A stretch of 64,000 nucleotides of DNA from Botryllus schlosseri (taxonomy: Eukaryota), in contig CM119371.1 in assembly GCA_051294905.1 (NCBI GenBank), forward strand, positions 23,810,001-23,874,000. Direction: 5' to 3'. Below, piece after piece: positions 1-56,294 of this stretch. Under the pieces are notes generated by a model that saw nothing but the letters and a program-made list of their open reading frames with translations, had not been told where the DNA came from and ran no database searches. The stretch's first letter is position 1, and the number at the start of each line of letters is the position of its first letter. The translations under genes and the position numbers were made by a program.

Positions 1-2
1 GT

Positions 3-125
3 CTTAAAATACGCGGAAAAGAAGCCGCTGGGAACGCTCTCGATTCTTTACTGAGAAAAAGAAAAATGCCAAGACGGGGTCGTAAGATCACGAAAAAGAG
101 ACGTCGCAAAGATATTTTCGATTAA
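3..125 (+). CDS. C-terminal fragment of a small basic Polinton protein (core/PW-PM-like)
   Basis: Frame from base 3 reads LKIRGKEAAGNALDSLLRKRKMPRRGRKITKKRRRKDIFD*; an Arg/Lys-rich tail ending in DIF just upstream of the capsid gene is typical of Maverick morphogenesis modules; 5' part lies outside the window. Confidence 0.65.
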   Translation, partial: LKIRGKEAAGNALDSLLRKRKMPRRGRKITKKRRRKDIFD

Positions 126-174
126 ATATATATTACACGACGATAAGCATCATTTGTTACTTGAGACTTGATAG

Positions 175-1452
175 ATGGCGGAGTTAATTCATGTACAGTC
201 CCCGGAGGGGGTACATCCCTCATTGGATTTATTTCACATTCCCGCGACACAGACTAGCGTCGAAAAGAAAAGAATCATCAAGATAGCGCCGATTTCGAAC
301 AACTCTAGTGTGATAACATTCCGCTTCGAAGGCTCAGAAGACTTTATCGATTTGAGCGAGAGCTATTTCTTATTTCATTTACAATTAAAGAAAGGTGGCG
401 AAGCAATTGGCGCCGACGATGATGTTGGAGTTGTAAATAATATCTTGGATTCCTTGATTTCTCAACTACAAATTAAAGTCGCTAACGAAACTTTGAAACA
501 AGATATAAAAGTACAGTGTTATTCGTCCTATCTGCACAATTTATTCACTCCGCTTGACGTGCAAAATACCACACTCAGGGCCGCAGGATGGAGAAAAGAT
601 ACTTTAGGAAAAATGGATACGATTGGTGGAACTAGCGCCTCGGCTAACAAAGGATATTACAACAGGAGTAAAGCCTATAAGGATGATAACGTAGTGGAAA
701 TACGTGCAAAAATCCATCACGGACTATGTCTGCAAGACCGCTACATCCTACATGACGTGCCTCTCGAGTTTGAGCTTACCTTGAATCCGAAAAGCTTTTT
801 CATGATGGGAGATGCTGCCGGTCAATTCACCTTAACGAAAAAAGAATTACAGTTATGTACCGTACGAGTCAGCGACGATGTGAAGACAGCGATGATGGTG
901 AATGCCCAGGCGAAATATCCGTATATCGACATGAAATTGATCACCCGAACATTTGCGGCTGCTACGACGCAGATAGATATCGGGAATCTATATAGCGGGA
1001 CTTTACCTTCTCGCCTAATCATCGGAATGGTAGCTACGAAAGCCTTTCAAGGAGATGTTACGAAAAATCCTTACAATTTCATACACAATAATATGCAACG
1101 ACTCGAACTGAAACTGAACGGATTTCTGATTCCGGAGGGAGGTTATGAGCTAGATTTCGATAAGGGTCATTACACGGAGCTTTATCATAACCTGATTGAA
1201 GGTACGGGTGCAATGGAGAAAAACAGAGGACTCCTAACGCCTGAAGAGTTCGCTAGTGGTTTCTGTCTACTGGTTTATAATTTGCGCCCCGATGATTTGG
1301 ATGATTGCTTTGACTTACAAAAGAGTGGTACCTTAAGTTTACGAATCACATTTCCTGCTGGCGGGCTAACAGCGGAAACTACTTTGCTCTGCTTCATGGA
1401 ATTTCAAAAGCTATTGCAAATCAGTAGCAGTCGTAAAGTGACCGTGCTATGA
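175..1452 (+). CDS. Polinton major capsid protein (PY, double jelly-roll/hexon-like)
   Basis: Intact 425-aa ORF with PY motifs: SLDLFHIPATQTS, FIDLSESY, VNNILDSLISQ, HGLCLQDRYI, PSRLIIGMV...AFQG...NPYNF, SGTLSLRITF, C-terminal MEFQKLLQI. Confidence 0.93.
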   Translation: MAELIHVQSPEGVHPSLDLFHIPATQTSVEKKRIIKIAPISNNSSVITFRFEGSEDFIDLSESYFLFHLQLKKGGEAIGADDDVGVVNNILDSLISQLQIKVANETLKQDIKVQCYSSYLHNLFTPLDVQNTTLRAAGWRKDTLGKMDTIGGTSASANKGYYNRSKAYKDDNVVEIRAKIHHGLCLQDRYILHDVPLEFELTLNPKSFFMMGDAAGQFTLTKKELQLCTVRVSDDVKTAMMVNAQAKYPYIDMKLITRTFAAATTQIDIGNLYSGTLPSRLIIGMVATKAFQGDVTKNPYNFIHNNMQRLELKLNGFLIPEGGYELDFDKGHYTELYHNLIEGTGAMEKNRGLLTPEEFASGFCLLVYNLRPDDLDDCFDLQKSGTLSLRITFPAGGLTAETTLLCFMEFQKLLQISSSRKVTVL

Positions 1453-1904
1453 ACGGGGATGAAATAGACCGCATATTGTGGTGCTGCGAGTCAACAAAAC
1501 ATATTTTCCTTGGTACATTTCCTATCGATCGACTGCCGAGGCGACCCCCTCCTCCTTATGCTATCGTGATCAATTATGACGAGGCTCGAAAAATCGGAAG
1601 TCACTGGATATGCATTTACGCGGATGAGGATGAGACACATTTTCATGATAGCTTTGGCTTAATGCCGTTGAAATACGAGATTGCGTGCTTTATAGAACCA
1701 GAAAATTATACCTGCTCCATAAAGCGTCTGCAGCACAAACGTTCCAGAGCGTGCGGTCATCATTGTCTAAGCTTCATCGTCCATAAGGCGCGCGGATGGA
1801 GTACGGAACGTTATTTAGATTCCTTTGGCGAAGATCACCGCAAGAATGATTCGATCGTACGACGCTTCGTCAAGGAGCTGAAGCAAGAAAATGAAATTGT
1901 GTAA
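1449..1904 (+). CDS. Adenain-like cysteine maturation protease (clan CE, PRO)
   Basis: Intact 151-aa ORF with catalytic motifs GSHW (His), HDSFG (Asp), RLQ (oxyanion Gln), ACGHHC (Cys); start overlaps the capsid stop (ATGA). Confidence 0.93.
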   Translation: MNGDEIDRILWCCESTKHIFLGTFPIDRLPRRPPPPYAIVINYDEARKIGSHWICIYADEDETHFHDSFGLMPLKYEIACFIEPENYTCSIKRLQHKRSRACGHHCLSFIVHKARGWSTERYLDSFGEDHRKNDSIVRRFVKELKQENEIV

Positions 1905-1915
1905 ATATATATGTG

Positions 1916-1921
1916 AATAAA
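1916..1921 (+). terminator. Polyadenylation signal AATAAA for the capsid-protease transcript
   Basis: AATAAA 12 nt after the protease stop. Confidence 0.6.
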
Positions 1922-2007
1922 ATCAATAGTTTCAAAGTTTACTTAGTACGTTTAAGGGTGATATTCGCTACGTTCATTATAGCAATCATCTCAAAGTAGT
2001 AGACTCT

Positions 2008-4570
2008 AAATCAGCAGTAGCGACTTGCTTTCGATTAGTCGATAGTGTCTACATATTATCATCATCTAGCAAGAGCCAGGAATTTATATTGAGCGACTTC
2101 CCTCCTACAGCAAACGCAACTTACATTACGTCGTTACTGAACATCAAGTAATAAGCGGGACTAGGCCGGCTACCCTTAATACGAATTTGCATTTTGCTGG
2201 CACAATCTATGCTATAGTTGAGCGACCTCAGCACACTTCTTTGATATAGCTGCACAACGATCTAGACTTCGGCGTCTGGTACAGATGTGATGTTATAGCT
2301 TCAACTCATAGCGTTTTAGGAGATAAATTATAGCATAGACATAGGTTATAGATTTTATTCACTATCGGAAAAGCATCAGTGCACTAGCTATTTAAATCAC
2401 GCATCTAAAAGCAGCAGCTTATGGACTAGTGGCTTCATAATATCATCATCTAGCAGGAGCCAGGAATTTGTATTGAGTGACTTCGCTCCTATAGCCCCAG
2501 CAAACGCAGCTTACATTAATACGGCGTTACTGAACATCGAGTAATAAGCGGCACTAGGCAGGCTACACTTAATACGAATCTGCATTTTGCGGGTACAATC
2601 TATGCTGTAGTTGAGCGACTTGAAATGATACGACCTTGGCATACTTCTTCGATATACATGTAGCTGCGCAACGATGTAGGCTTGAGCGCCAGCGTCTGGA
2701 ACAGATGTGATGTCGGTGATCTGAAATGTTAAGATATAGCTTCAAGCCGCTGTGGCGTAGCGTTTCAGGAGATAAATTATAGCATAGACATAGGTTTAGC
2801 TATAGATTTTATTCACTATCGGAAATGCTATGATAACGCATCAGTACACTAGCTATTAAAATCACATATCTAAAAGCAGCAGCTTATGGACTTGTAAAAT
2901 CGACATAATCTCAGTAGTTAGATGCTTGCTCTCGCAATTTGCCACTTTTATGCCATGAGTAAAGCTAGCTAAAGATTTAGCTTCAAGACGCTGTGGTGTA
3001 GCGAATTTTATTTAAATCAGCAGTAGCGACTTGCTTTCGATTTATACAGGCGATAGTGGCTACATATTACCATCGTCTAGCAAGAACCAGGAATTTGTGT
3101 TGAGTGACTTCGCTCCTACAGCAAACGCAACTTACATTATTACGGCGTTACTGAACATCGAGTAATAAGCGGCACTAGGTAGGCTACCCTAAATACGAAT
3201 TTGTATTTTGCTGGCACAATCTATGCTATAGTTGAGCGACTTTGATACGACCTCAGCACACTTCTTTGATATAGTTATAGCTGCACAACGATCTAGACTT
3301 GAACGTCGGCGTCTGGTACTGATGTGATGTTATAGCTTCAACCCGTAGCGTTTTAGGAGATAAATTATAGCATAGACATAGGTTATAGATTTTATTCACT
3401 ATCGGAAAAGCATCAGTGCACTAGCTATTTAAATCACGCATCTAAAAGCAGCAGCTTATGGACTAGTGGCTTCATATTATCATCATCTAGCAGGAGCCTA
3501 TTAGGGAATTTGTATTGAGTGACTTCGCTCCTATAGCCCTGGCAAACGCAGCTTACATTAATACGGCGTTACTGAACATCGAGTAATGAGCGGCGCTAGG
3601 CAGGCTACACTTAATACGAATTTGCATTTTGCGGGCACAATCTATGCTATAGTTGAGCGACTTGAAATGATACGACCTTGGCATACTTCTTCGATATACA
3701 TGTAGCTGCGCAACGATGTAGGCTTGAACGCCGCCGTCTGGAATAGCTGCGATGTCGGTGATCTGAAATGTTAAGATATAGCTTCAACCCGCAGTGGTAT
3801 AGCATAGACATAGGTTTAGCTATAGATTTTATTCACTATCGGAAATGTTATGATAACGCATCAGTACACTAGCTATTAAAATCACATATCTAAAAGCAGC
3901 AGCTTATGGCCTTATAAAATCGGCATAAAATCAGTAGTTAGATGCTTGCTACAACTCGCAATTTACCACCTTTATGGCATGAGTAAAGCTAGCTAAAGAT
4001 TTAGCTTCAAGACGCTGTGGCGTAGCGAATTTTAGAATAGCTCATAAATTATATAGCTCTGCTAATTCGTGTCACTATTAGCATAGGTTTATATTGGCTA
4101 TAGATTTTATTCACTATCGGAAATGTTATGATAAAGCATCAGTGCACTAGCTATTAAAATCACATATCTAAAAGCAGCGGTAACTTACCAGCGTCATCAG
4201 TCGAAGTGCATAGAGGGATAGGCCTAGTTGTGATAGAAATGTGAAATTTTCTGAGCGTAAATTGCGTGTGCGATGTCGGCGTTTTGATCTGAAATGAAAA
4301 AATTTAGCTTCAATCCGCGGCAGCGTAGCGAATCTTAGAATAGTCGATAAATTATATAGCTATGCTATTCGTAGCACTATAAGCATAGGTTTATATTGGT
4401 TATATATTTATTCACTATCAGAAATGGTAAGATAAAGCATCACTGCACTACCTATTAAATCAGCTCCATTACGTATCTAAAAGCAGCGGCTTATGGGCTT
4501 GTAAAATCAGCATAATCTCAGTAGTTAGATGCTTGCTACAACTCGCAATTTATCAACTTTAGGTCGTGAG
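2008..4570. repeat. Higher-order tandem repeat array in the Polinton tail (about 0.4-0.6 kb units; ~1006-bp dimer repeated twice, plus two partial copies)
   Basis: AAATCAGCAGTAGCGACTTGCTTTCGATT at 2008 and 3014; CATC(A/G)TCTAGCA near 2060, 2444, 3071, 3481; ATTTTATTCACTATC-type motif six times between ~2350 and ~4415. Confidence 0.9.
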
Positions 4571-4899
4571 TAAAGCAAGAATTCATAGACTAACATCCAT
4601 CTCAAATCCGAAGTGCATACCCGCCTAATTATAACCAAATTTAGTGCGAATCTATACGATAACAGAAAACTTGCATATACATTCGAATCTGTGCGACTTC
4701 GGCTATATTGCCGGTTAACATTATAGCCGCGCACAGAACTCACTATTACGTTAGCTATTGGAGAAATCTCAACGTAAATCAATCTGCGTTCACAAGTAAG
4801 CTAATGCTGTATCGAGAAATTATAGCTAAATTGAGTTTAAATTGACACGAAAATACATTGATCTTACCTCGTCTGCGATGCCTGCATCCCTGCGCACAT
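3557..4899 (-). CDS. Candidate spliced leftward gene of the Polinton (exons 4899-4868, 4288-4189, 3762-3557), unknown product
   Basis: GCCATG start; donors GAG|GTAAGA, CTG|GTAAGT, AAT|GTAAGC; acceptors TTTTTCATTTCAG and AACATTTCAG; exon phases join into an open frame of about 112 codons; no homology recognised. Confidence 0.4.
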
Positions 4900-4964
4900 G
4901 GCAATACTTTTAACAGAAGTGTGAAGTTTTCAGAATGCGAATTGCTTTACGTCGGAAGTAAACA

Positions 4965-5499
4965 TTCTAATTCGTATCGCCAGCGCGGCGTTTTCTTGGA
5001 AACGCAACTATATATTTAGAATGTTCTAATTCCCATTATCGATGTGGCCCGACTTCTTGGAATCGCAACTATATTAGAATGTTCTAATTCATATTGTCGA
5101 TGTGACCCGACTTCTTGGAATCGTAAGCAACTATATTCGTACCACATTTACACGCGTCAATTTCTTGGAATAGTATTCAGCAATATGCGCGGCGCATGAG
5201 CTTTGCGTGATCGTAGGCCTTTATGCTTGCGATATCAGTATTATTAAGTTGCATTTGCAGAATTCCCCAAAATCATTGACTAATTAATGAATCTAATTCA
5301 TATTGTCGATGTGACCCGACTTCTTGGAATCGTAAGCAGCTATATTCGTACCACATTTACACGCGTCAATTTCTTGGAATAGTATTCAGCAATATGCGCG
5401 GCGCATGAGCTTTGCGTGATCGTAGGCCTTTATGCTTGCGATATCAGTATTATTAAGTTGCATTTGCAGAATTCCCCAAAATCATTGACTAATTAATGA
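4965..5499. repeat. ~58-bp degenerate repeats plus a 209-bp near-perfect tandem duplication (5083-5290 / 5292-5499)
   Basis: TCTAATTC...TTCTTGGAA...GCAACTATA units near 4965, 5024, 5082; block from 5083 repeated at 5292. Confidence 0.9.
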
Positions 5500-5628
5500 T
5501 GACACAGCTGTTATAGTACACACGAATATAGTCTTACATTTATGTGTAATAACTCGAAAAAGGTGTTGTCTCGGAATTTAAGAGAGAATCGGCGGTTATA
5601 TTCTCAAAACAGCTCAATACGGCTAGTT

Positions 5629-5705
5629 TGCTCAATAGCCTGGTGGTGAGCGACGTGAAATTATACCCAACCAAACCAGGTTCGATTCTAGCTTAGGTAA
5701 GTTTT
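5629..5705 (+). ncRNA. tRNA-like Pol III type-2 unit inside the Polinton terminal region (VA-RNA-like candidate)
   Basis: A box TAGCCTGGTGG (5636-5646), B box GGTTCGATTCT (5679-5689) at tRNA spacing, TTTT at 5702-5705; cloverleaf stems degenerate. Confidence 0.5.
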
Positions 5706-6022
5706 GATGTGGCAATGAGTGACATAGGTGCAGCAATCGACATCGCGCGGGTTGATGCTGCGCAGCGTATAGATGCGACAATCAATGCGGTGATGATGTG
5801 GCAATGGTTGGATGATGTGGCACTATAGGCGTGGCACTTGATGATGTTGCGCAGGTGATGTGGCAATGGGTGTGCTATAGGTACGGCAATGGGCGGATGA
5901 TGTGGCAAGGGGCGTCCTATAGGTGCGGCAATGGGCGGATGATGTGGCAATCTAGGCGTGGCAATTAAGGCGACGTGGCCTTCTGGGATTGGCGGGGCAT
6001 AAAAGTAGATCCCCTCACTACT
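5706..6022. repeat. GC-rich subterminal repeats and terminus of the Polinton (presumed TIR/origin)
   Basis: GATGTGGCA about six times, CTATAGGTRCGGCAATGGGCGGATGATGTGGCAA twice, terminal ACTACT; matching left TIR not in the window. Confidence 0.75.
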
Positions 6023-6465
6023 CAAAGAGCATATCGCTGCATGACTTTGACAAAAAGTACGTTCTTGAAATTGGTCTTTATCCCAGCTTGACCAGCAAAT
6101 TGCATCAAATTTTGGAAGCACGTACGCCTGTGAACAATAGTTGTGAACAATGAAATTCACGAAGGGCAAGCTAAGATCACGTATTTCTGACGTCCATTTT
6201 CAATAGGGGCTGATTCTTGTTTCATCTGACTTGTTACCAGAAGTTGTAAACCTTCCACAGAGCAAGCTGCGTCAATTGTCACAATTATTCTGTGTTGTTG
6301 AAGTGTAAATACATGTGTCTTCTGATGGGTATGATTGAGATTGCAGTAATGTAGGATAATATACCGAAGTGAGCGTAAAATATAGTACTAAGAAAAATTC
6401 CGGCCCGCCAAAAAGTTGTGCACCCGAAATTTGGCCCGCGACTAGCTAAAGGTTGCCGAACCCTG
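6023..6465 (+). pseudogene. 3' part of a decayed Buster/Charlie (GTF2IRD2-like) hAT transposon interrupted by the Polinton
   Basis: Reads SLHDFDKKYV...YPSL / IASNFGSTYACEQ*L*TMKFTKGKLRSRISDVHF (hAT dimerisation motif with stops); ends GGCCCGCG...GGTTGCCGAACCCTG. Confidence 0.8.
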
Positions 6466-9400
6466 CGTTACGTGAAGCCGGGAGATAATCAAGCGCAATT
6501 TGATTGGTTAATTACGCTGACACCAATCTCGCCGGCCGACCGATAGAAAGGAGAACAATCGATCTTCTGAATTCGAGAGCGATCAGTTTTTGTACATCAG
6601 AGGCGCCGCCTCACTGTAGTGTCAAAACGGTTGCGTTCACTTCTCTCCTGCACTGTCTTCGCCTGGTTCAGCATGGAATATACACATTTTGTTGACTGGG
6701 TGGCGTCATCCCAACACTGCTACTAACCTCGCATTGTGAATAGCTATAGCAGCCCAACGTTTATGTACTTACCATACCGGTCGTGAAAAATATGGAATGT
6801 TGTCTTTATCTGTCGATGAAATTTAGATGATAAATACAGCTCATTTATATGAATCAAAATACGTATTTTTGTCCTTCTAACAACAAAACCTAAAGTTCAG
6901 ATCTTGAACCGTTTTGTGAGAACCACAGCATGGGAATAAATATATCTCAACAGTTCTGACTGTCAGAGTGTATTCAAATGAATAAATCATGGTCAATAAT
7001 AATAGTCAATCATTTAGACATATCAATGGGCACACCTCATTTTATCACATTTAGTGTGCATGGAGGATTAATCATTAGTAAAATAGACTTTCCACCTCTA
7101 TTTCTCCTATAGTATATGGGATTATTAATATTAAAAGTTATGTATTTAAATTACCGATTTTTCAGCTTTTTTACTCATGCATTATTTTTTACGTTTCTAT
7201 TATGCTTTATTGTGCATTGATGTAGCCTACACCAGTGATGAGCGGCTATAGATTTTTGAGAATACGAATCCATCCGATGGCTTGAGTGTCTGTGAAACTA
7301 TCCGACCGAATCCGAAGAATGTCATCCAACTATGCGACTATATCCGAAAATGTCATACAATAACCCAAAAAAAATCCGTATCGAAAAACGTTGTAGCAGA
7401 GGGCATCAATTATACAACGGAGCTGAGATACAGTTCGGCACTAGAAGATCACTAATAGTATCAATGGAATGAGCAAAATCAAAAATTGGACTTTTAATTA
7501 TTGGAAGGTTAACGCAAAGAGACATAGCTACTAATTTGAAGTAGGTGTGCAGATGAAGGTGTCCTCTCGTAACGAAAGCAAATGAAAAAGAACAGAAATA
7601 TTTAGGGAATAGATATAAAAAAATAATGAACTGTATTATCTAATAAATATCAATAAGTAATTGAAGCTAATTGTTACAATAGAAGTTCACAATATTCGAT
7701 GCAAATATTCCGCATTTTGTCAACAAATACTGGAAGCTGTGAAAGCTGGTTTACTAGCAACTTGCTGATGCTTATAATACCATTGTTCAATCAGTTCAAA
7801 TATTGGGACACCATGCTTGTAGTCACACAATATACATAAGGCTAAAGCAGATAGTTGATTTTGATTAACTTGGATCATTGACAAACATTTTAGAGCAGTG
7901 GTCGGGAACCTATGGCTCGCGAGCCATATATGGCTCTTTTGGGTATAAGATATGACTCTTTTCCAAATATTTATTTTTGTACTGAATTGATCAATATTGT
8001 AGCAACTTGTTAGTACATTTTAATCACGGCCAGATAATTATTGTCGTGGCAGTATAAACATGTCTGTTAGAGGTAAATCCTCAAATTTAAGTTACTATCG
8101 CGCCGACGACCAATATCAATCGCGAATTCGATGCACCCGATTCGCAATCTTAGATTGCACAATACGTTGATTGATCAAAGAGAATAGCAGACATGCCGAC
8201 GCCCATATGACAACGCAGTTTTCAAATACACATTGTCTTCCTGATCTACGGCGCGAAATGAACTGCATTTAGACGTAGAATTCACAATTACAAACTCGAA
8301 TTACAAACAACGCCATAGCTATCCACGTTCTTGATTGCTAAGTAGCTCTGTAGTATCGGCGATAAAATGTAGGCGAGTATCGCAACGCTATATGTTACCG
8401 CCGAATACTCTGAGAATTGAAAAGTCGATCAGTATTTAGATTTTTGGAATCGTTAAAGCTACACTCGATTAATATCAGTTATAACAAATTCTAAGCTATT
8501 TACGATGAATTGCGTTATCAATGATGACTTGGCCCATCTGTGCCTTAGCTGTCGTTTCGCGCTTTAATTTCGAATAATAAATACGCAAATTGTGTCATTA
8601 CGGGAGACAAATGTTCAAACTCTTGTCGTTCATGAACATCGATAGAAAATACCAATAGTAATTGACAGGGCCGTAACAGCACTTCGTCAGCCCCCCAAAA
8701 AACGTTGGTCATGGGCCCCCCATAGGTTGATAAACCGAACTTCTGCCCCAGACCCCCCTTGCTTATCCGCTGTTTACCGCTACTCATCATCTGTGTTGAT
8801 CGTCCGTTTAGTGCGGCAGCTTTTGTCGTCCAGACGCGCGAAGCGAGAAAAATTTCAAAATTCCTGATTGAATCGGTCAATATGATCGGGAATTGAACAT
8901 ATATTGTTATCAATTTTTATCCTCTCTCTGCCCACGTAATCAGATTTACCGGTAGACCTGAGTGAGGTGCGTTTGAAATGGTAGGACCCCTCAATAATAA
9001 TTTCACATCTTCGGGCGTATACCCGTTCGCAGGAACGAGACAGCACTTGGACAGGCCCCCCAATAAAACTTGGGTCTTGGGCTCCCATAGGGTGATAAAC
9101 CGCCCCCATCACATTGTTCGCTTTTGTCACGAAATAAGGGCCACAGTTTAGTGAACCAGCGCTAAGCTCGAAAATTTTCGATAATTCATGATAAAATCGG
9201 TCAATAATATTGGGAATTGCATATATATTGCTATCAATTTCTTGTTCTCTCTGTTCACGTTATCAGATTTACCGGTAGAGCTGAATGAGGTGGCTTGGAA
9301 ACTGTAGGGCCCGTAAATAATAATTAAACATATTCGGGCGGGCGGCCCCGTGGGTATGACTTCGTTTCATGATGTCATTTCGTGATCTCCTGTCTGTTAC

Positions 9401-10301
9401 ATCAAAAAATACAGAATCGCCCAAATGTACTAAACCAGAGGTCTCAAACTCAAATGTGCTCGCGGGCCAATTTCCTACCTTTTATGGCTCCGCGGGCCGC
9501 AGTAGGCCTACCAATGATAGGAGAATTCAATGTATTTCCAAGTAGGTCTTATTTGACGGGACCTTGCAGACTGACATTCCACAAGTGTCGTAAAAATGTG
9601 TGAATTACTATTGTGAATTCACGCCTGGCACGAAAAAGATAACATTTTTATATGTGCAAATAAAATTGTTACTGTACTTGGCATAGTTTGTCAAAATAAT
9701 TAGTTGTAGACACCATACGAGAGAACAAATATGGGAACCAGACATGGGGTGATTACTTCATGAATGTAATCGATTGCGATTACGATTACTTCGGAATCAC
9801 GCGATTACGATTACGATTACGATTACAGCAAAATCAGGAAGTAGTCGATTACGATTACGATTACATTGGAAAAGTAATCACGATTACTCACGAATACATT
9901 TGTTTTGCTTCTTAGAACTATAATCTTAAATGATATATTGGAAGACAATGCAAGGATTGCGATGAAAAGGTTTAATGAGATATCAACTCTCTTCATGCAT
10001 CATGCATCATTTGCTTATTACGTCATAATATACCAATTGCCCAACTTTATAGGGGATGATTTATCGCACCCAACGATTTGCATTATTGCCAGGTCTTTAC
10101 CTGCCGCACCCCAAAGTATTTAATAGGGTGGGGAGCGTGCTTGAAGGGGACTCAAAAGTATTTCGTAAACCAACTTAAATTATAGAGTATTTTCGAGAAT
10201 TTAATTAATTCTTGAATATGTTCTTCGAGCTTCGCGATTCAAATGTCTCTAGTAGGTTACGGGGACACCAACGCGGACCAAATGAGTCGCCCGCGGTCGC
10301 T

Positions 10302-10646
10302 GTGGCAAATATCCGAATGAGAGATTCGAAAGTTGAAGCTGGTTTCATATGAGCAGCAGTTGAACATGGGCCGGCCGACCCCAAGGAACATACGAACGCA
10401 GTCGCTCGGGGCATTGCTCGTCTTCGCCCACGCAGCGGCTCAGCGGGAATCAATAGTTAATATTCCCGAGTCTCGACGCGGAGATTGCCGCTTCGGCGCG
10501 CACTGCATCAACGCAACTGAGCCCGGAGAAGCTGGTGTGAGTCCCGGCGAGTGAGCGTTTTCTGTTCTTGGTAAGGGGCGGAAACCCGGCCTAGGTGAAC
10601 TCTAAGTGAAGAAATCCAACTGAACACGGATAAACGGTGGGAGTAA
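10302..10646 (+). pseudogene. Diverged 28S rRNA-derived fragments carried in element E
   Basis: GTGGCAAATATCCGAATGAGA...CAGCAGTTGAACATGGG...CCCGGAGAAGCTGG (28S D7 region) joined to AAGTGAAGAAATCCAA...TAAACGGTGGGAGTAA (conserved core upstream of the R2 site); compared with remembered 28S consensus. Confidence 0.8.
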
Positions 10647-11844
10647 GTGGTAACCCGTCGGTCGTCGAAATAATCAGTAGACACTACACAAGAAGTAGCT
10701 TTTTGTTTCAAAACGGTTGGTGACCCCTGCTCCAGTAGATAGCTGGGTTTGAAATGCATACCTCTTCCCCCAATGAAAAAATGCATAGGCTATTGGGAAC
10801 AGGCCTTTCGGAGCCGGTCATTACAGCGCCACGATTCCACATCAAACCAAAAGACTTGTGCATGTGCAGTTTCGGCCAACACGCAACTGCATGGGATGCG
10901 ATACCAAAGAAATACCTTGGCCGAAACTTACGGTATTCGTCCATTGTCAATAGCCGCGCTGGGTGGGCGTGACTAATAACTCCTGTCCTTCCAATCTGGA
11001 CCCACAATGCAAATCCCACCCGGCGCATCCACAAAGGAATAAAGCCATGACAATTTGTGTGTGCGTCTCACGAAAGATATTCTTTTAGTCTGCTACGTTT
11101 GGGCGAGTACAATATCTTTTGATTATACAACAGACTGGAGGTCGCGAATTAACAACATACAATAAAGTAATTATAACAACATACCAGATGCTATAATTAT
11201 GAATTGCGTGCCCCAGATCTACAGGTAAATCTTACACTCGGGACTGAGAGAGGTTATAAATGAATAGTAATATAATGCAAGTACCAATATTATTGACGAA
11301 ATGCAGTTTTGAAAATTGACCAACGGTTGGACTGGGGGACGAATTGCAGTTTTGGTTCTGATTCTAGCTACAACCCACGCGGATGTAATGGCGCCAGGTC
11401 CAAATGCTGAGTAACGAACTGTGAAATAACGATTGATGCCCGTTTCAAGTAGTTATATGAGAATAAGACAGTGAACATAAAATTTCTGCCTTCAACTTAA
11501 TAGCCTACATATACTGCGAGCTGCTGTTACGAGAAACGGCTAAGCACGGCTCGGTTATGATATATATCAGCAGCTGTTTATTTGTAATGCTTCGTTGTGG
11601 AAACTGCAATGTTTTATTCGACGAGTACAAAATTCCGAATCTTCGTCAGATGCACGTGCGTACGTAGGCCTCCTGCTCGCCACGCAGCAACGGTAAACTG
11701 CGTTTAACTAAGCACAACCAAACATCAATACATAAGTTACTATTAGAAACTATAGGCAGAGTGGGTGATCAATATCCTGTTGCGAGGTAGCGCTTCTGTA
11801 GTGTATTGATAACCTGATATACACCACGGGGACGTTGTTACAAT

Positions 11845-13104
11845 TAGGGTTGGGACTTCGGGATCAAATTTGAAATCCCGGGATCGGGATTTTCCCGGGA
11901 TTCTCGCTTCTCAATCCCGGGATTTCCCGGGATTGGAAAAGTATTGAAATACACTAACAAGCTACACAATAGGGCTGTTCAAAAATAACCTTTTTTCCTG
12001 AATCTTGCTGGGTACGTTATAAAATCGTTAAGTTGCCTTAAAAAACGACGCACACCAAATTTGAATTCATTCCAACCAATATTCGCGGGTTTCGTAGAGT
12101 TTGAAAATTTTGAATTAAAAAAAAAAAATTTCAAATTTTTCTGCCAACCCCATGCAATTGTTGGGCTGTCTTCAAAAACTATGCAAAACAAATTTGACTC
12201 AATTACAAGTAGGGTTGGGACTTCGGGATCAAATTTGAAATCCCGGGATCGGGATTTCCCGGGATTTTCGCTCCTCAATCGCGGGACTCCCCGAGATTAG
12301 AAAAGTAGTAAAATAGACATACAAGTTACACAAATAACATTTAGTCCTTGTGATATTGAATTGACGCAAAACATAAGAGCATCAAGAGTATCATCGTTTA
12401 GATCAGGGGTCCGAAACTCCAATTTTATCGCGGGCCAATTTCGTAGTTTTTGATGACGCGGCGGGCAGCAGCATCAAATAGGGGTATAATATGTATTTCC
12501 CAGTACGCCTTTTTTGTCGGACCTTGCAGATTGGCATTCCATACACATTGTGAAAATGTAATACAATATTGTAATATTCACGGTTGCCACGAAAAAGTCA
12601 TATTTTTCAATATTTTTTAAAAAATATTGTTGTGCTTGGCATAATTTGGCGACAGAAAGGAGTTATATAGACAGTTAGAAACCATGCGAGACGACAAATG
12701 CATCGTGTCATCGTAAAAGCTGTCGCATTATAATTTAGCAGCTAGTGGACGTTTGATGTGTGATAGCGATTCAGGTTTTTGGAGTGGTTTCAGAATGAAA
12801 TTTCAAGTTCTCAAATCCGAAATCTGAAATTTTCGAGTTTAATATTGTAGAATGCTTGAAAAGTCAAAACGCCGACGTGGGCCGCAAAAACAGTTCTGGC
12901 GGGCCGCGTGTTTGAGGCCACTGTTCTAGACAATCAGCCGAGTTTGTGACACTGCTTTATTACCAAAATAAGAGATATGGCGCTACATAAGCCTTGGTAG
13001 ATGCTGATCACAAATCCCGGGATTTCATCGGGACCAATCCCGGGATCGGGATTGCTTCAAATCCCGGGATCCCGGGATCGGGATTTCCCGGGGTCCCAAC
13101 GCTA
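11845..13104. mobile_element. hAT MITE family F (ATCCCGGGAT palindromic repeats); nest level 6
   Basis: TIRs TAGGGTTGGGAC / GTCCCAACGCTA; TSD GTTACAAT; left end duplicated at ~12210. Confidence 0.85.
12404..12923. mobile_element. hAT MITE related to family D; nest level 7
   Basis: CAGGGGTCCGAAAC...GTTTGAGGCCACTG; body homologous to 9436-9730 and 13487 onward; TSD degenerate (GTTTAGAT/TTCTAGAC). Confidence 0.75.
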
Positions 13105-15172
13105 GTTACAATCACACTGCAATGTCCATCGCATGTCTGTTTACTATGTGTGGATACTTCTTACGCAATGACGAGCGGAGCTAATACTTCTGACGCAACA
13201 ATGAGTAGTGGCGTTTGAAAACAGACGTTTGTGCTATCGCTAACGTGGTATATTATCTCATTCTTGTTCACGAATATTCAGTTTATGTCATAGTCCTTGT
13301 ACAAACAAAAAGTAATCGTTCTTTCACAAAAAAATCGATTAGATATGGGAAGTAGTCGATTACGATTACGATTACTTCGGATTTTTTTCGAATGTAATCG
13401 ATTGCGATTACGATTACTTCAAAATGCTGTAATCGTCGTAATCGATTACGATTACTAATCGCGATTACCCCATGTCTGATGGGAACATCGTAAAAGCTGT
13501 CGCGTTATAATTTTGCAGCTAGCGGACATTTGACGTGCCGCAATTATAGGTAGAATTTTAGAATTTTACAAAGATTGATCTGATACCGAGCATTGGAGCA
13601 GTACAGCCAAAACCGGGTTTCGGGTATACTCCTGATAAATAGGCTATTGGTGACATCATTACCAAAGTCAAATTAAATCATCGTTATTACCTTCGAATAT
13701 TTGAACGGATCAATAAAAACTTGAATCTGCTGATTACTGTGCCATTGCAATAGATGTGTTCAATCGCCGAAGAATCCTTTTATGATACAGCTGTGAATTA
13801 TAGGTTGCGAATGCTATACTCTCCACATTTAATTGGCGATAATAACATGTATAAAGATACCCAAGATGACACAGGATGTAACCAACTATACATCAAGAGT
13901 GCAACATAATGTCAATTGTTGCCATACCTACCTGCTTAGATATCTAAAAAGCTACGAAACTTAAGATACGACCTTTTGATATTTTACTATTTTCCATACC
14001 AGTTTGATAGTTTGCTGCGTCCGTGGTTGTCCATAGTCACGGCGTTCCGCTTCACAAAGGTCCTTCTCTGATTGTACCTTTTGACGCGACTTTACTAGAG
14101 TCAGTTTTATTTTATCACCCATTAAGTTCGGATGATTCTACAAAAGGTCGCGCCCAAGTCCAAATCACAATTTTCAGTAGAAATCATCAACGGGCCATGT
14201 TTAACCATAATAAACAAGATGATGTCACGTAATAGTTAACCTTCTACTGCGTCGTAACTTTTGAAAGTTATGTAATAAGGAAGTTTGATGAGTAGTTTCG
14301 GGCTTCTGGAGTAGTTTTAGAGCGAATTTTAAGTTCTCAAATTAAAAGAAAATGGTAGTTACATATTGTCGAATACTTCGAAATCCCAAATGCCATCGCG
14401 GGCCTCACAAAACAGTCTCGCGGGCCGCATGCGGCCCACGGGCCGCGTGTTGGAGACCTCTGTACTAAACTAACGACGCACACGATTTCAAATTGGTATT
14501 TCTTCACGGGCATACAATTTTCCCTGCGGAATGGTATTTGTCTTCTGAGGTTCGGATTGCCAAGACAGGAACATTCGGCGCCAATCATTTAGGCGCCTAT
14601 GGACAATTAAACCTATATGCATTTTGCATTTATAACGAAGTTTTCGGTCAGCGTAAGCGGACAGTCCTTTTTGGCCCAGGTTTTCTCGCTGCCGATCGTA
14701 CTGGCACACTTCTTGGAGTCGCATGTTACATGTTCTAAAACCTTAAATGTCTCGGCGATATGTCAATTTCGATAAAACTTGCGTATTTTGTCTTGGGGGA
14801 AGAGTAGACTACCAAATAAGTAAGAAAAGTTGGCAACATGAAATCGCGCGCAGCGCGAAAAATTTTTGAAAAAGTTGCATAAATTTTTGAAAAATACTTT
14901 ATAATTTATGCTAATTCGCGAGATAATTTTGGGCCTCCTTCGAGCTCGGGTCCCCCCAATTGGGGGGTTTGGGTGCGGCACTTACGGTCCTGGTAATTGA
15001 AGGTTTCACCATTTTCGTTCACTCATCATCCTGACGAACGCGGAGGTACTGCACTGCCTCACTTGCCTTCTCTGATCCGACGTCACTGATGTATCATAGC
15101 TTAGAGTAGGTAGGTAATTAGCCATATATACTGCTGTAGTGACCATGCTCGGCTCCGCGTATGCATGTGATC

Positions 15173-21075: not shown

Positions 21076-23623
21076 CTCTCATGCGTCCTGATCATGGCCT
21101 ACACTGGCGATTAAAACTCGGTTCAATTTACGTCTGGGATGTTAATATACCGTCGTTGTAGCGATATGATGACCCCAGATAAACCTCCGAAACATTGATT
21201 TCATCGCAACCGTGATTCGTAACCACTTCCAATGATGCCGCAAAGCTGAAGTGTGACAAACTGCGCCAGACTCTTGTCAAGGAGATGTACATGTCACATC
21301 TTAAACTAATATAAATTATGCCCGGGGTAGGATTCAAATTGTAGTCTACTGGCCGGCATAGCGATATTTTTCAGCAAATAATATTTTTTATATAAGTACG
21401 AATATCGTTTTGAAAAGATAATAAGAAGGCAGTGCAGTAGCGACTTGAACAATCACGCAATCATCGGTGATGCTTATGGTGAAATTTATTATTTTATGAA
21501 TTTATTATTTTATCTCTCACTCAAAAACTCACTGAAAAAGCTGATTCAACTATCGCATTCTATAAAATCAAATTATCTAGCAAACTATAATTAAGATTCA
21601 AGTCGCTGTAAGAATACGATGCAACCAAGGTACCAGCGAAGTGTGCGAGTTAGCTGAAAAACGTTACTGCGAAATAACCCACTGAAAGAAACCCCGCAAA
21701 ATTTAAATTTATAAACCTAACATCACAATTATTATACAAATTAACACGATTTATAATTAATGCGTGCGTACCTGACAATAGCAAATTTTGAATATTTGTG
21801 TGCCATTTGGATCTACAAAAATCTGTAGGTCCAGCTGTATGAAATAATCCGCTGATGTATTGCAAAGAGTTTCCCTGATAGCACATAATTATGTGGGACT
21901 GTTCTACAGACGGATGAATCCCTTCAGTTATTCTGTTAGAAGTTTTTATTTTTATGACGCGATCATCAGAGGTAAGAGCTGCACGTGATATGAGATAATT
22001 TTTTGATTTAGTGGTGGCTTTTTCCTAAAGTAATTCAGCCATGTTTTGCGTTTTTATATTTGTGAGTGAGTTTTTAGCAGTAGAACAGAGCAGTGATGAG
22101 CGGATGTTGATTTTTGAGAATCCGAATCCGTCCGACAGTTTTTGTGTCTGCGGAACTATCCGTCCGACTCCGAAGAATCTCATCCAACTATCCGACTTTA
22201 TCCGAAAATCTCGTACAAGAATCCGAAAAATCCTTATCGAATAATGATATCGCAGAGTATCAATTGTACAGCTGAGCTTAGATACAGTTCTGCACTAAAA
22301 GATCACGAATTGTATCTATGGAATGAACAAAAACAAACAGAACAAAAATTGGAATTTTAATTATAGGAATGTTAACGCGAAGAAACAACGCTACTAATTT
22401 AAAGTAAGTGTGCAAATGAAAGTGGTATCTTGGATCAAAAGAAAATTAAAAATGACAGATTATTAGGCCATGGCCATATATAACAATCAGGCATTTAACC
22501 ATATTACCCAATATCAAGAAGTGATAGTAGCAAGTTGTAACTATGGAATTTTACAATCTCAGATGGTCAATATTGGATGCAGATAATCCGCATTTTGCCC
22601 ACAAATGCTGGAATGTGTGAAAGCCTGTTCAGTAGAAACTTGCTGATGCTTATAATACCTTTGGTCAATCAGTTCAAAGTTTTGAGCATGGCGCTTATAG
22701 TCGAGTCACACAAAATGTCGATAATAGCACCATCCTGAATGTCCCTCTTTAGCTGTCCAAATTTCCTCTCCAGTGACTAGTAGCAGGTCAGTAGTTGTCT
22801 TGCCGACTTGTATATTGGAAGAGAAGAAACTTATCTCCAAGTGTGCTTTATCCTTGGCCTTTCGGATATGATTTGTAAGGTGCATTGGGCCACTTGAAAA
22901 GTTGTGGTGTTTCACTTGAACATATCAATTATTGCATAGAGGCAGTGTCCCATAAATCAGGATGCAATCTCTCCATACTTCACTCTTGCTGTGCTATCTC
23001 TCAAGACGTCGACTTTCCTCATTGATCCATTATTACGGAGAAACTAAACTCAGACAGCACGAGCAGTTTGACAACATTTGAGGTCTTCAAATAATGCAAA
23101 GTAAACTGTACGGTACGGAGTACACTTCGAACAGTTGATGGAGCTCCACTCAAGAGAAATGACGCATCCCTAACGCACTGATCACCACTCATTGGTGTTG
23201 ACTTTCAAACTGTTTACATGGTCTCTCGTTTAAATCATACAGAAGAGCACCATAAAAACGGCAAGGTTTTTTTCACGATTCTTAAAATGAAATCAAATTA
23301 ACATGAACAGACCATTCGTTGAGAAAAAACTAACAGCTTTTGTTTATATGGCTCAGTGGTTCTAGATGATTGATTCCGTCAATCATATTGGAGAAAATAT
23401 AGCTGCTGAAGGAAAGGAAGTGTAAGCAGGAGTTGAATAGGTTTGTGTTTCGTTGTAACTGTATATAGGAATTCTGGATTTCATAGCCTTGTTATATGTT
23501 ATTAGTTTACCTTAGTAAGGTATGCATGTATCTTGAATGATTCCAAAGGGGACGATAAGCTACTCGCTACTGTATAGTCGAGGCATCGTTATAATAATTA
23601 TCATACATTTTATCTGTGTACAT

Positions 23624-26104
23624 TAGGGTTGTTCAGAATTGACGGACTTTCAAAAAGTCCAGGTTTTCAGTCCGATTACCATGCCTTATACCTTAAAAAC
23701 ATATTCTGGCTACTTTTTTTTGTAACTCATCCCCTGCATCCGTGTGCACATTGAGCTGGAAGAATAGCAGCTGAAAATAGGGGATTCCCCTAAAATCTGA
23801 GTGTCACGATTTTACCTGGCCTAGTTAAAGTGACATATAACATGGATTTATGCAGCTGTTGCGGTTTGGAGTGCTACAAAACCCCACTATATAAGGCATT
23901 CCTTGTTCAGGATATCATTTCCATGTCCCACACTGCCTTAAAACTGCTCAAAACTACCTAAAACTGATAGTCATTTGGTTGGATCACATGTCCTATACAC
24001 CCCTCAAATCTACCCGGCACTGTTCATCAATTTCCTGGATCCCAATGTGCAAGAATGCAACTTTAAATGTAACATCCACTCACAGCCACATAATAAACAT
24101 CACAGGAAACGAAAAAATAAGGCAAAGAAAGAGATCAACTTGGCAAAATATTACATAAATCAGGTGGATGAAATAGTTGATTTCGAGAAATCTGCATATC
24201 TGTTCCGGTGATCTTCCACAGCTTGCAGGAGGCTCGCTCGCTGTTTTTTGTCATCCGTTATGTACGCAGCATAGTCGGTATTCAATTTTACCATACGCTC
24301 TGCTGCATCATTAAAGTGCTACAGGAAAAGCACAGGCTGATGCATCATTTGAACTGCTGGAACTTTGGAATTTAACAAAATCTGTTAGAGCTCTTGTGTT
24401 TGACACAACATCCTCAAACACTGGTAAAAACAAAGGTGCGGTTCCGTTACTTGAAGAATTGATTAACAGGAAAGTTTTCTACAATACCTGTCGCCATCAT
24501 ATTTATGAACTGGTCATGAGGTTTGGAAGTGTTTGTTTGGATCGACAACCACAGGCCCTGAAAACACGGATTTTAATACCTTCAAGAAGAAGTGGAAACA
24601 TATTGATAAATCAAGAAGCTATAAAACGCTGAATTTTATTGAAGGCAGCTGGTTGGCGATGAAAGCTGATGAAGCAAAGCAAGAAATAATTCCACTGATG
24701 AAACCCAATGATGGAAAGCAGAAAGAAGTCTTGATAAGAGATGACTACAGAGAATGTGCAACAGGCACCTTGGCGATTTTGGATGACAAATATGTTGATC
24801 ATCGTTTTCGCAAGCCTGGTGCTACTCATAGCGCTAGATGGATGAGTCAAGTCCTGTACTGTCAAAAAATGTTCATGTGGAGTGAGCAAATGGACTATTC
24901 TGAAGAGTTCATTGAAAAGTTGGAACGAATCAATACATTCATTGCTTTGTTTTATGTTCCAGCTTGGTTGAAAACTGGTATTGCATGTGACGCACCTTGG
25001 AATGATCTCAAATTCCTTCATGACATGAAAAACTTTTCATTATGCGATCTCACTGTTGCTGATGTGGCATACAAGAAATTGCGAAAACATCATTGGTATC
25101 TAACTGAGGAAATGGTGGTATTTACCACGTTCTCGGCTAATCCAAAGATTCCTGACAAACTGAAGGAAGCGATGGCTGCTAAATTGCTGAAAATGCCAAT
25201 CCCTGAAAAATTTCGCAGATGTAGCCTATGCCTCTCAGTCTGATCTCTGACTCTGTCTCTGAGTCAATGAGTATGGCGATTTGATTGGGCCAGAATCGTG
25301 GTTTCTATTTGATGCTATACATGTGGAACATTATTGGTTGAGTCTTCCAGTTTCGGAATGGCATACTGATCCGGATTTCGTGACTGCTCAAGAATTTGTG
25401 AATACTGTTGAAGTAGTTAATGATGCAGCAGAGCGGAAGCTAAAATTGAATACCGACTATGCTGCGTTCATAACGGATGACAAAAAACAGCGAGCGTGCC
25501 TCCTACAAGCTGTTGAAGATCACCGGAACAGATATGCAGATTTCTCGAAATCAACCATTTCATCCACCTGATTTATGTAATATTTTGCCAAGCTGATCTC
25601 TTTCTTTGCCTTATTTTTTCGTTTCCTGTGATGTTTATTATGTGGCTGTGAGTGGATGTTACATTTACAGTTGTAATCTTGCACGTGGGGATCCAGGAAA
25701 TTGATGAACAGTGCCGGGTAGGTTTGAGGGGTGTGGGATATGTGATCCAACAAAATGACTATCAGTTTTAGGTAGTTTTGAGCAGTTTTAAGGTAGTGTG
25801 GGACATGGAAATGATATCCTTAACTAGGAATGCCTACTATAGTGGGGTTTTGTAGCACTCCAAACCGCAACAGCTGCATAAATCCATGTTATATGTCACT
25901 TTAACCAGGCTAGGTAAAATCGTGACACTCAGATTTTAGGGGAATCCCCTATTTTCAGCTGCTAGTCTTCCAGCTCAATGTGCACACGGATGCAGGGGAT
26001 GAGTTACAAAAAAAGTAGCCAGAATATGTTTTTAAGGTATAAGGCATGGGAATCGAACTGAAAACCTGGACTTTTTGAAAGTCGGTCAATTCTGAACAAC
26101 CCTA
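23624..26104 (+). mobile_element. hATm-like element with ~690-bp inverted arms (two right ends)
   Basis: TAGGGTTGTTCAGAATTGAC ends; 23624-24314 is the inverted copy of 25417-26104; TSD GTGTACAT. Confidence 0.9.
24315..25571 (+). pseudogene. hATm-family transposase, N-terminally truncated and frameshifted
   Basis: VFDTTSSNTG, CRHHIYEL, PGATHSARWM, HHWYLTEE, VVNDAAER split over three frames. Confidence 0.88.
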
Positions 26105-55718: not shown

Positions 55719-56294
55719 TTGTACGGTTTGTGTTTTCGCGGTCAGTGCAGCGGTAGCTTCCCATTGATACCCATTTTTGTCGAGTTCAGCGCTCGGCAGG
55801 CCGGTCAAGAACGGTCTTTGGATGGATGGAAGGCGTGACGTGGGGCAGGTGCGGTGAGCCGTACAATCTCGCCGTGTCCACACCATTTATGACACTATTG
55901 TGAAAGCATATGAAGTTTTGGGCAGTGAGTGGGCATAAAGAAAGCATGTCAGCTCTCATCTGAACGCCTTGAAGTCCAGAGTCTAACGAGCTACCGGTAC
56001 TCAGATATTAAAGAATGCGCTGTACAGTTAGTTTATCGATGAATGGCCGTCAATAATGGCTTTACTACATATTAGCAACTGGATGAGTTTCTTTATGGAA
56101 CGGCAGATTAACGGCACGTATTTTCATTCAAGCAAGCGGGTGAATAGTGTAAGGGGGAAAAAGTGTGTGAGAAATACTGTTTGTGCAAAACTATGTAGGG
56201 AGATTGATTTAGATTGATATAAATTTTTTAATTATGGAATTGTGATTTTTCCCCCTACAGTTACTCAGCTAAGATTGCAGCTTTTGTGTTCTCA

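What the first reader, a model, noticed from the sequence alone, without database searches (positions are those of the whole stretch)
1..6022. Endogenous Polinton/adintovirus end with an intact virion module and a long, structured tail
Seen: uninterrupted capsid and protease ORFs with all catalytic residues, a basic core-like ORF, and an AGTAGT terminus, in a window where every recognisable transposase is broken. Known: Polintons with PY capsid and adenain are thought to form virions. Inference: a young, possibly still reactivatable provirus in an invertebrate host, with ~4.1 kb of tail that is long for a simple TIR.
Basis: partly seen in the sequence, partly recalled or inferred. Interest (0 to 1): 0.75.

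Follow-up and report, generated by a model that had tools for sequence, protein, structure and literature searches.

The report
Right end of a Maverick/Polinton element
This is the real, recently active right end of a virus-like Maverick/Polinton transposon in an animal genome, with unbroken capsid and protease genes; its long tail is mostly self-duplicated filler, and the element looks like an ordinary new member of a well-known family.

Summary
Confirmed: an open double-jelly-roll major capsid gene (175-1452) and an open adenain-type protease (1449-1904; H52/D67/Q95/C102 invariant in 5 of 5 homologues). Contigs from public runs put the element's edge exactly at 6022/6023, inside a high-copy host repeat.

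Corrected: the "core-like ORF" is the last 40 residues of a ~125-aa PW-like protein that starts left of the window. The 4.1-kb tail is not structured. It is 57% direct tandem duplication, has no ORF over 54 aa and shows no folding signal. Nothing shows it is a TIR; a junction at 5771 in two runs hints at a ~250-bp TIR. The contrast with "broken" transposons is weak, because a hAT-like pair in the same window is 99.8% identical.

Untested: polymerase, integrase, ATPase, penton, left TIR, TSD, expression and virions (no genome held).

The scan's index had no look-alike of this DNA. It did note many other Polinton derivatives in this genome (unchecked). Verdict: new member of a known kind; "reactivatable provirus" is neither shown nor excluded.

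The parts
3..125 (+). Last 40 codons of a PW-like (amphipathic, basic-tailed) small protein; its start lies left of the window
   Evidence: Frame open from base 3; 28/40 identical to the C-terminus of the 123-aa P0164; P0164 has an 18-residue helix of hydrophobic moment 0.59 at residue 41; position directly before MCP matches PW in PMC8097293 section 7. The PW name rests on position and character, not on alignment to a named PW.
175..1452 (+). Major capsid protein (PY type, double jelly-roll), 425 aa, open
   Evidence: AlphaFold pLDDT 94.3; Foldseek best hit Sputnik MCP E 1.3e-16, TM 0.69, then PBCV-1, iridovirus and mavirus MCPs; 5278 relatives at E<=0.001; Pfam PF21738 E 0.011, below its cut-off; Atlas clusters at 0.98
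1449..1904 (+). Adenain/Ulp1-type maturation protease, 151 aa, open
   Evidence: H52, D67, Q95, C102 invariant in 5 of 5; profile hit to ASFV pS273R E 2.2e-05; model matches adenovirus 8 protease best, Z 13.9, rmsd 3.2 over 149 residues (model pLDDT 76.6)
1916..1921 (+). AATAAA, candidate poly(A) signal for the gene block
   Evidence: Seen in the sequence 12 nt after the protease stop; use not tested
2007..4579 (.). Nested direct duplications: two ~1.0-kb units (2007-3012, 3013-4034) built from older 0.3-0.5-kb subunits, plus partial further copies
   Evidence: 1-kb units: 937 matches, 45 mismatches, 10 gaps; subunits 72-81% alike; no ORF over 54 aa in the tail
4993..5499 (.). 58-bp tandem unit (2.2 copies) and a 209-bp tandem duplication
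   Evidence: TRF; 207 of 209 identical; a go-back joint at 5332->5300 in run X3 (depth 797) suggests the unit number varies among family copies
5705..5970 (.). Subterminal imperfect 19-42-bp repeats with a GATGTGGCA core
   Evidence: skip and go-back joints at 5894->5953 (X3) and 5935->5856 (X1)
5771..6022 (.). Candidate terminal inverted repeat (252 bp), or the part shared with a sister family
   Evidence: One contig each in X3 and X8 (two studies) leaves the window sequence before 5771 with the same letters; summed depth rises beyond about 5770 in X1, X3 and X8. The left TIR itself was not seen.
6017..6022 (-). Terminal (AGT)2 motif (ACTACT on +); right end of the element
   Evidence: Commonest Maverick end motif (PMC8097293 section 7); boundary fixed by loose ends before 6023 in X1 (47 contigs) and X3 (12), and by an X3 contig that leaves at 6022 with other letters
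6023..6028 (+). CAAAGA, candidate right copy of a 6-bp target-site duplication
   Evidence: Position only; the left copy is outside the window and untested
6023..6465 (.). Right part of a high-copy host repeat (hAT-MITE-like end at 6451-6465) that the element interrupted; not part of the element
   Evidence: Summed depth about 1e5 against 9.8 at unique flank in X1; other copies continue upstream of 6023 with one common sequence, agreement 0.98 and 0.85; the end motif has 6 matches in the window counting itself, against 0.78 expected; the hAT label is my recall of TIR type

Best explanation
Bases 1-6022 are the right end of a gene-carrying Maverick/Polinton (adintovirus-type) element inserted into a copy of a host repeat. 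Shown: PW-like end, major capsid and protease form one co-directional block pointing towards the terminus, followed by a gene-free, repeat-expanded region and the (ACT)2 end. Inferred from the family: an rve integrase cut in with a 6-bp duplication; a protein-primed polymerase starts at the AGTAGT ends by sliding back; MCP builds an icosahedral shell; the protease matures it; the PW-like protein supplies a membrane-active helix and a basic DNA-binding tail. The tail is the accessory region, grown by repeated tandem duplication during the lineage's replication. It may be kept as filler that holds genome length near a packaging size (inference). The true TIR is probably only its outer part, perhaps about 250 bp. 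The copy has drifted little since selection last acted. I put the chance that all unseen core genes of this copy are also open at about one half.
For: Fold and catalytic residues. Gene order PW-MCP-PRO as in vertebrate Mavericks, where outward-pointing or same-strand modules are also described. Homologues of all three genes sit on Logan contigs of the same length, 3022 nt, probably one contig. Exact boundary at 6022/6023 and a second flank on the same end. Three frames (1857 nt) without a stop or frameshift limit neutral drift to about 0.9-3.6%, depending on the assumed indel rate. A 305-nt subterminal contig in run X7 has 0 differences at depth 26.5, where the other low-depth X7 pieces listed are 2-10. 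Twenty runs of 11 studies hold part of the stretch. Tail subunits differ by 19-28%, more than post-insertion drift allows, so the expansion belongs to the lineage.
Against: No polymerase, integrase, ATPase, penton, left TIR or left TSD was seen (no genome). No loose-end row 'behind 6022' is among the 24 rows shown (2081 not shown), so many different flanks were not seen; there is only one alternative flank, from one contig, and it could also be a deletion allele of this same insertion. Most family copies in X1 and X3 differ from the window at several subterminal places (5339, 5350, 5527, 5694, 5778), so this copy is not the majority type. In vertebrates 96% of Maverick loci are degraded. X1 may be the source sample and is not independent support.
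Confidence: 0.8

Rival explanations
1. The piece is one arm of a palindromic (snap-back) derivative that carries the PW-MCP-PRO block in both arms and lacks polymerase and integrase: a helper-dependent element that brings its own capsid module. The whole 6 kb would then be inverted repeat.
For: Earlier scan notes (unchecked) describe several hundred palindromic Polinton derivatives in this genome, about ten times the gene-carrying ones, some with an end module duplicated and pointing outward in both arms. The genes here point outward. Subterminal depth is far above single copy.
Against: Those notes describe the palindromes as lacking capsid genes. Look-ups with the MCP, with 4600-6022, with 5700-6022 and with 1-7522 found look-alikes in 0 windows (index sensitivity unknown). 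The junction at 5771 in two runs fits a short TIR.
Confidence: 0.1
2. A one-ended or internally broken remnant: the right end is fresh, but the left part was deleted, interrupted or has lost its frames, so the copy is dead.
For: Most Maverick loci in vertebrates are defective; the window is dense in nested repeats; this copy differs from the majority letters of its family.
Against: All 1857 coding bases in view are open, and the terminus is exact.
Confidence: 0.08
3. A free virus or contaminant joined to host DNA by misassembly, or capsid and protease genes domesticated by the host.
For: No contig bridging 6022/6023 is among the pieces shown (32 shown, 56045 not shown).
Against: The join falls exactly at the canonical end motif and exactly where other copies of the host repeat run on with different DNA, as expected of integration. 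The genes are intronless, overlapping and multi-gene, unlike a domesticated gene.
Confidence: 0.02

Closest known systems
Vertebrate Mavericks (Barreat & Katzourakis 2021, PMC8097293; sections 7 and 14 read whole, plus passages)
   Same: PW-MCP-PRO order on one strand, intronless genes, (AGT)2//(ACT)2 end motif, a flanking accessory region between genes and end
   Different: The block points towards the terminus (described there only for Rhinella and, as a same-strand layout, Xenopus). The flanking region holds 4.1 kb of gene-free tandem duplications instead of accessory ORFs. TIRs there are 46-1447 bp; here the length is unknown. The MCP is only about 24-35% identical to all but two of its 136 aligned relatives.
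Adintoviruses with Beta/Terrapene-class virion module (Starrett et al. 2021, PMC8502044; section 8 read whole, plus passages)
   Same: Hexon-like MCP, adenain, and a small amphipathic protein of the kind they call cupiennin-like (P0164 helix moment 0.59)
   Different: PolB class (Alpha/Beta), GasderminX, penton, FtsK and integrase are not visible. Equating the PW-like ORF with their 'cupiennin' gene is my inference, not an alignment.
Polinton PY capsid family (Krupovic et al. 2014, PMC4028283; passages), whose data set includes Ciona intestinalis Polintons
   Same: Double jelly-roll MCP related to PBCV-1 VP54
   Different: Sequence-divergent sub-lineage: groups with P0001 (79%) and P0007 (46%) on a long, well-supported branch in a quick tree of the first 60 of 137 aligned rows (careful search unfinished)
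Adenovirus protease (adenain) and ASFV pS273R
   Same: CE-clan fold with His, acidic residue, Gln and Cys in order
   Different: Shorter (151 vs about 200 aa), about 20% identity; activity and cofactor not tested

Membership tests
Polinton/Maverick | [quoted passage not shown] | tested here: met
Polinton/Maverick | Adenain/Ulp1-type cysteine protease with catalytic residues | tested here: met
   sequence and fold only, no activity
Polinton/Maverick | Terminal (AGT)2//(ACT)2 motif at a true element boundary | tested here: met
   Right end only; motif as
Polinton/Maverick | PW-MCP-PRO co-directional gene order | tested here: inconclusive
   Order and character fit, but no named PW sequence was available to align
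Polinton/Maverick | Terminal inverted repeats at both ends (about 50-1500 bp) | tested here: inconclusive
   Left end outside the window; junction at 5771 in X3 and X8 hints at 252 bp
Polinton/Maverick | 6-bp target-site duplication | not testable with these tools
   Left copy outside the window; no genome held
Polinton/Maverick | Protein-primed PolB and rve integrase | not testable with these tools
   Would lie left of base 1; no close relatives with flanks were found
Polinton/Maverick | Packaging ATPase and minor capsid (penton) | not testable with these tools
   As above
Intact (potentially active) Maverick as defined in PMC8097293 | Eight (or seven) open core ORFs plus TIRs plus TSD | tested here: inconclusive
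   2 full ORFs and one ORF end are open; the rest are unseen
Palindromic Polinton satellites of this genome (scan notes only) | Whole arm repeated as a mirror image; no capsid or replication genes | tested here: inconclusive
   Capsid and protease are present, unlike the notes; mirror arm not testable; 0 look-alike windows

The most novel reading that the evidence does not exclude
This is the capsid end of a currently spreading, sequence-divergent Maverick lineage in a marine invertebrate. Either it is the virion-forming helper for the genome's hundreds of gene-poor palindromic satellites, or it is itself a palindrome that keeps its own capsid-protease module while borrowing polymerase and integrase. 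The gene-free, repeat-expanded tail would act as a length filler under a packaging limit. That would give a natural helper/satellite system in an animal in which the unseen Maverick virion could be looked for.
Probability: 0.2. Interest if true: 0.65.

Novelty: new member of a known kind. Interest (0 to 1): 0.3.

Why it matters
Papers read here state that particles of animal Mavericks/Polintons have not been observed (PMC8097293 abstract; 10.1101/2023.08.22.554363 passages). Multi-copy lineages with open capsid genes are therefore useful places to look. Intact copies are, however, already catalogued by the hundred (134 in vertebrates; 266 Polintons in nematodes), so one more element end does not change the picture. 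It would matter more if the lineage proved to be the helper of the palindromic satellites noted elsewhere in this genome, or if the gene-free tail proved to be a size filler.

Tried and rejected
No whole genome was held, so the left part could not be read.

Searches for relatives with flanks: the MCP in viral contigs gave 0 confirmed of 10 candidate stretches; the protease alignment gave 0 of 31; the terminal 22-mer gave 0. The deeper MCP alignments had no stretch conserved enough to scan. The metagenome scan confirmed 2 of 87 stretches, both distant (29-36%) PLV-like contigs with another gene layout; I dropped them.

Sequence searches of the PDB found nothing for the MCP. The Atlas gave no usable hit for the 40-aa ORF end. 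Rfam found 0 families in the window at gathering thresholds.

Rejected: a folded or hairpin tail; a hidden ORF in the tail (longest 54 aa against a shuffle mean of 81); a stand-alone core peptide from ATG 66; horizontal transfer between organism labels A, B and C, because runs X7 and X8 also hold the host repeats of the flank.

The empty allele could not be told from other copies of the host repeat, and X3 and X8 have no cover on the unique flank at 6821-7171, which proves nothing. No RNA holder is on record.

Literature: searches for Maverick/Polinton with tunicate or ascidian, non-autonomous plus palindromic, long TIRs plus tandem repeats and protein VI plus amphipathic showed, from the listings only, no paper on this element or on repeat-filled tails. 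The library lacks most subscription papers, and no supplements were read; TIR tables there may bear on tail length.
Full report
Observation. The window opens inside a gene block on the + strand. Frame 3 is open from base 3 to a stop at 123-125. A 425-aa ORF spans 175-1452 and a 151-aa ORF spans 1449-1904, overlapping by ATGA, with AATAAA at 1916-1921. Then come 4118 nt without an ATG ORF over 54 aa (shuffle mean 81), ending in ACTACT at 6017-6022, followed by CAAAGA. No whole genome is held, so nothing left of base 1 could be read.

Capsid. Pfam gives only a sub-threshold double-jelly-roll hit (E 0.011). A profile search finds 5278 relatives at E up to 0.001. A model from 137 aligned sequences has pLDDT 94.3 and matches the Sputnik, PBCV-1, iridovirus and mavirus major capsid proteins (best E 1.3e-16, TM 0.69). 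That is the PY/MCP fold as defined in PMC4028283 (passages). The lineage is divergent: one relative is 79% identical, one 46%, and the other 134 are 24-35%. In a quick tree of the first 60 of 137 rows it sits with those two on a long branch (careful search unfinished).

Protease. Four homologues were found among 13 candidates. H52, D67, Q95 and C102 are invariant in 5 of 5. The profile hits ASFV pS273R (E 2.2e-05), and the model matches adenovirus 8 protease best (Z 13.9, rmsd 3.2, 149 residues). Assigning catalytic roles to these residues rests on those matches and on recalled adenain chemistry.

The 'core-like ORF'. The 40 visible residues are 70% identical to the C-terminus of a 123-aa protein, P0164, which has an amphipathic helix near residue 41 (moment 0.59). 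A member of its cluster, the 79% MCP homologue and the closest protease homologue all lie on Logan contigs of 3022 nt, probably one contig. In vertebrate Mavericks the gene directly before MCP is PW (PMC8097293 section 7), and adintoviruses carry a membrane-active 'cupiennin-like' protein (PMC8502044 section 8). I read it as PW-like by position and character; no named PW was aligned. A role like adenovirus protein VI is my inference from memory, and one search listed no paper making it for Polintons.

The terminus. The hexamer occurs 42 times in the window on both strands, so it needed independent support. I laid contigs of 4 of the 24 listed runs on 5300-8800. The DNA from 6023 is a high-copy host repeat (summed depth about 1e5 against 9.8 on unique flank in X1). 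Its other copies continue upstream of 6023 with one common sequence (47 contigs in X1, agreement 0.98; 12 in X3, 0.85). The element therefore interrupts that repeat exactly at 6022/6023. One X3 contig leaves the element at 6022 with 27 other letters and rejoins the repeat at 6332: most simply a second insertion, though a deletion allele is possible. Against this: no loose-end row behind 6022 is among the 24 shown (2081 not shown), no bridging contig is among the pieces shown, and X1 may be the source sample.

The tail. 77% of it is covered by self-matches and 2359 of 4118 nt repeat an earlier stretch, leaving about 1.76 kb. There are 0 inverted self-matches, and 2 of 40 local folds reach z below -2 (the last 170 nt were not folded). 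It consists of two ~1-kb units (45 mismatches, 10 gaps) built from subunits 72-81% alike, a 58-bp unit, a 209-bp duplication (207 of 209 identical) and short subterminal repeats. Joints in X1 and X3 suggest unit numbers vary among copies. Mavericks normally have accessory regions outside the core modules and TIRs of 46-1447 bp; a nematode study gives 100-1500 bp (passages). One contig each in X3 and X8 leaves the window sequence before 5771 with the same letters, and summed depth rises beyond about 5770 in three of four runs. That fits a 252-bp TIR or a sister family sharing the end. So a 4-kb TIR is not shown; the tail is best read as a repeat-expanded accessory region. Element size in vertebrates varies by only about 10%, so a filler role is plausible, but this is inference.

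Age and copy number. 1857 open coding bases limit neutral drift to about 0.9-3.6%, depending on the assumed indel share. Subterminal depth is well above single copy; for example one X3 contig at 5761 has depth 1567, against 36-70 for five of the listed X3 pieces. The tool warns that depth is no copy number, so 'tens or more' is rough. A 305-nt X7 contig from another study is identical to 5389-5693. Most copies in X1 and X3 differ from the window at several places, so this copy is one variant of a family. Twenty runs of 11 studies hold part of the stretch. Insertion polymorphism and expression were not determined.

Context from the scan. Unchecked notes describe this host as a sea squirt with about 60 gene-carrying Mavericks and several hundred palindromic derivatives. 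They raised my palindrome rival and the novel case. Four look-ups with this element's DNA found 0 look-alike windows, which weighs mildly against it being the end those satellites use. Polintons of a tunicate (Ciona) are already in the data set of PMC4028283.

How it works. Shown: three co-directional virion genes, an exact integration boundary, a multi-copy and little-drifted lineage, and a tail built by tandem duplication. Inferred from the family: integrase-mediated insertion with a 6-bp duplication, protein-primed replication from the (AGT)2 ends (jumping-back), capsid assembly and protease maturation, and spread by reinfection. Not shown: that this copy keeps its other genes, is expressed or makes particles.

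Verdict. A genuine Maverick/Polinton right end and a new member of a known kind. I give 0.8 to a two-ended gene-carrying element, about half of that fully open; 0.1 to a capsid-carrying palindrome; 0.08 to a remnant. Interest 0.3.

Papers seen: PMC8097293 (sections 7 and 14 whole, passages), PMC8502044 (section 8 whole, passages), PMC9683012 (abstract, passages), and passages only of PMC4028283, PMC6431247, PMC11071308, 10.1101/2023.08.22.554363 and 10.1101/2023.10.06.561300. All others were seen as search listings. No supplements were read.

Noticed in passing
window 9740-13479 (+) and 37569-41308 (-): Two copies of a 3.74-kb non-autonomous hAT-like element, 99.84% identical, with TIRs starting CAGACATGGG and different perfect 8-bp TSDs: very recent transposition. 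It holds nested smaller repeats.
   Followed up: partly
window about 10250-10750 (inside the hAT-like element): A GC-richer stretch ending in a T run that looks like a captured non-coding RNA gene; no Rfam family reached the gathering score; not searched at E-value level.
   Followed up: partly
window 23617-26111: 698-bp inverted repeats (95% alike) around a 244-aa ORF at 24509-25243 with no Pfam hit: a DNA transposon with long TIRs.
   Followed up: no
window 56232-58001 (+): Two adjacent ORFs (278 and 310 aa) in one frame separated by a single stop; transposase-like by eye, no Pfam hit.
   Followed up: no
window 43012-44638 (-): A THAP-domain ORF (E 1.3e-07) next to an ORF with weak MULE/ISL3-type hits: pieces of a DNA transposon.
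   Followed up: no
window 7896 onward: Start of a very high-copy repeat with many different upstream flanks in runs X1, X3 and X7 (agreement about 0.4), a clear multi-site transposon end.
   Followed up: no
L001 592-5338 and L002: Two marine metagenome contigs of a PLV-like element in which the protease domain is fused behind about 350 residues of basic, proline-rich sequence, followed by penton-like and capsid-like ORFs (by eye).
   Followed up: no
window 1-6022: CpG observed/expected is 1.32 in the genes and 1.16 in the tail against 1.00 in the rest of the window: no CpG depletion of the element.
   Followed up: no
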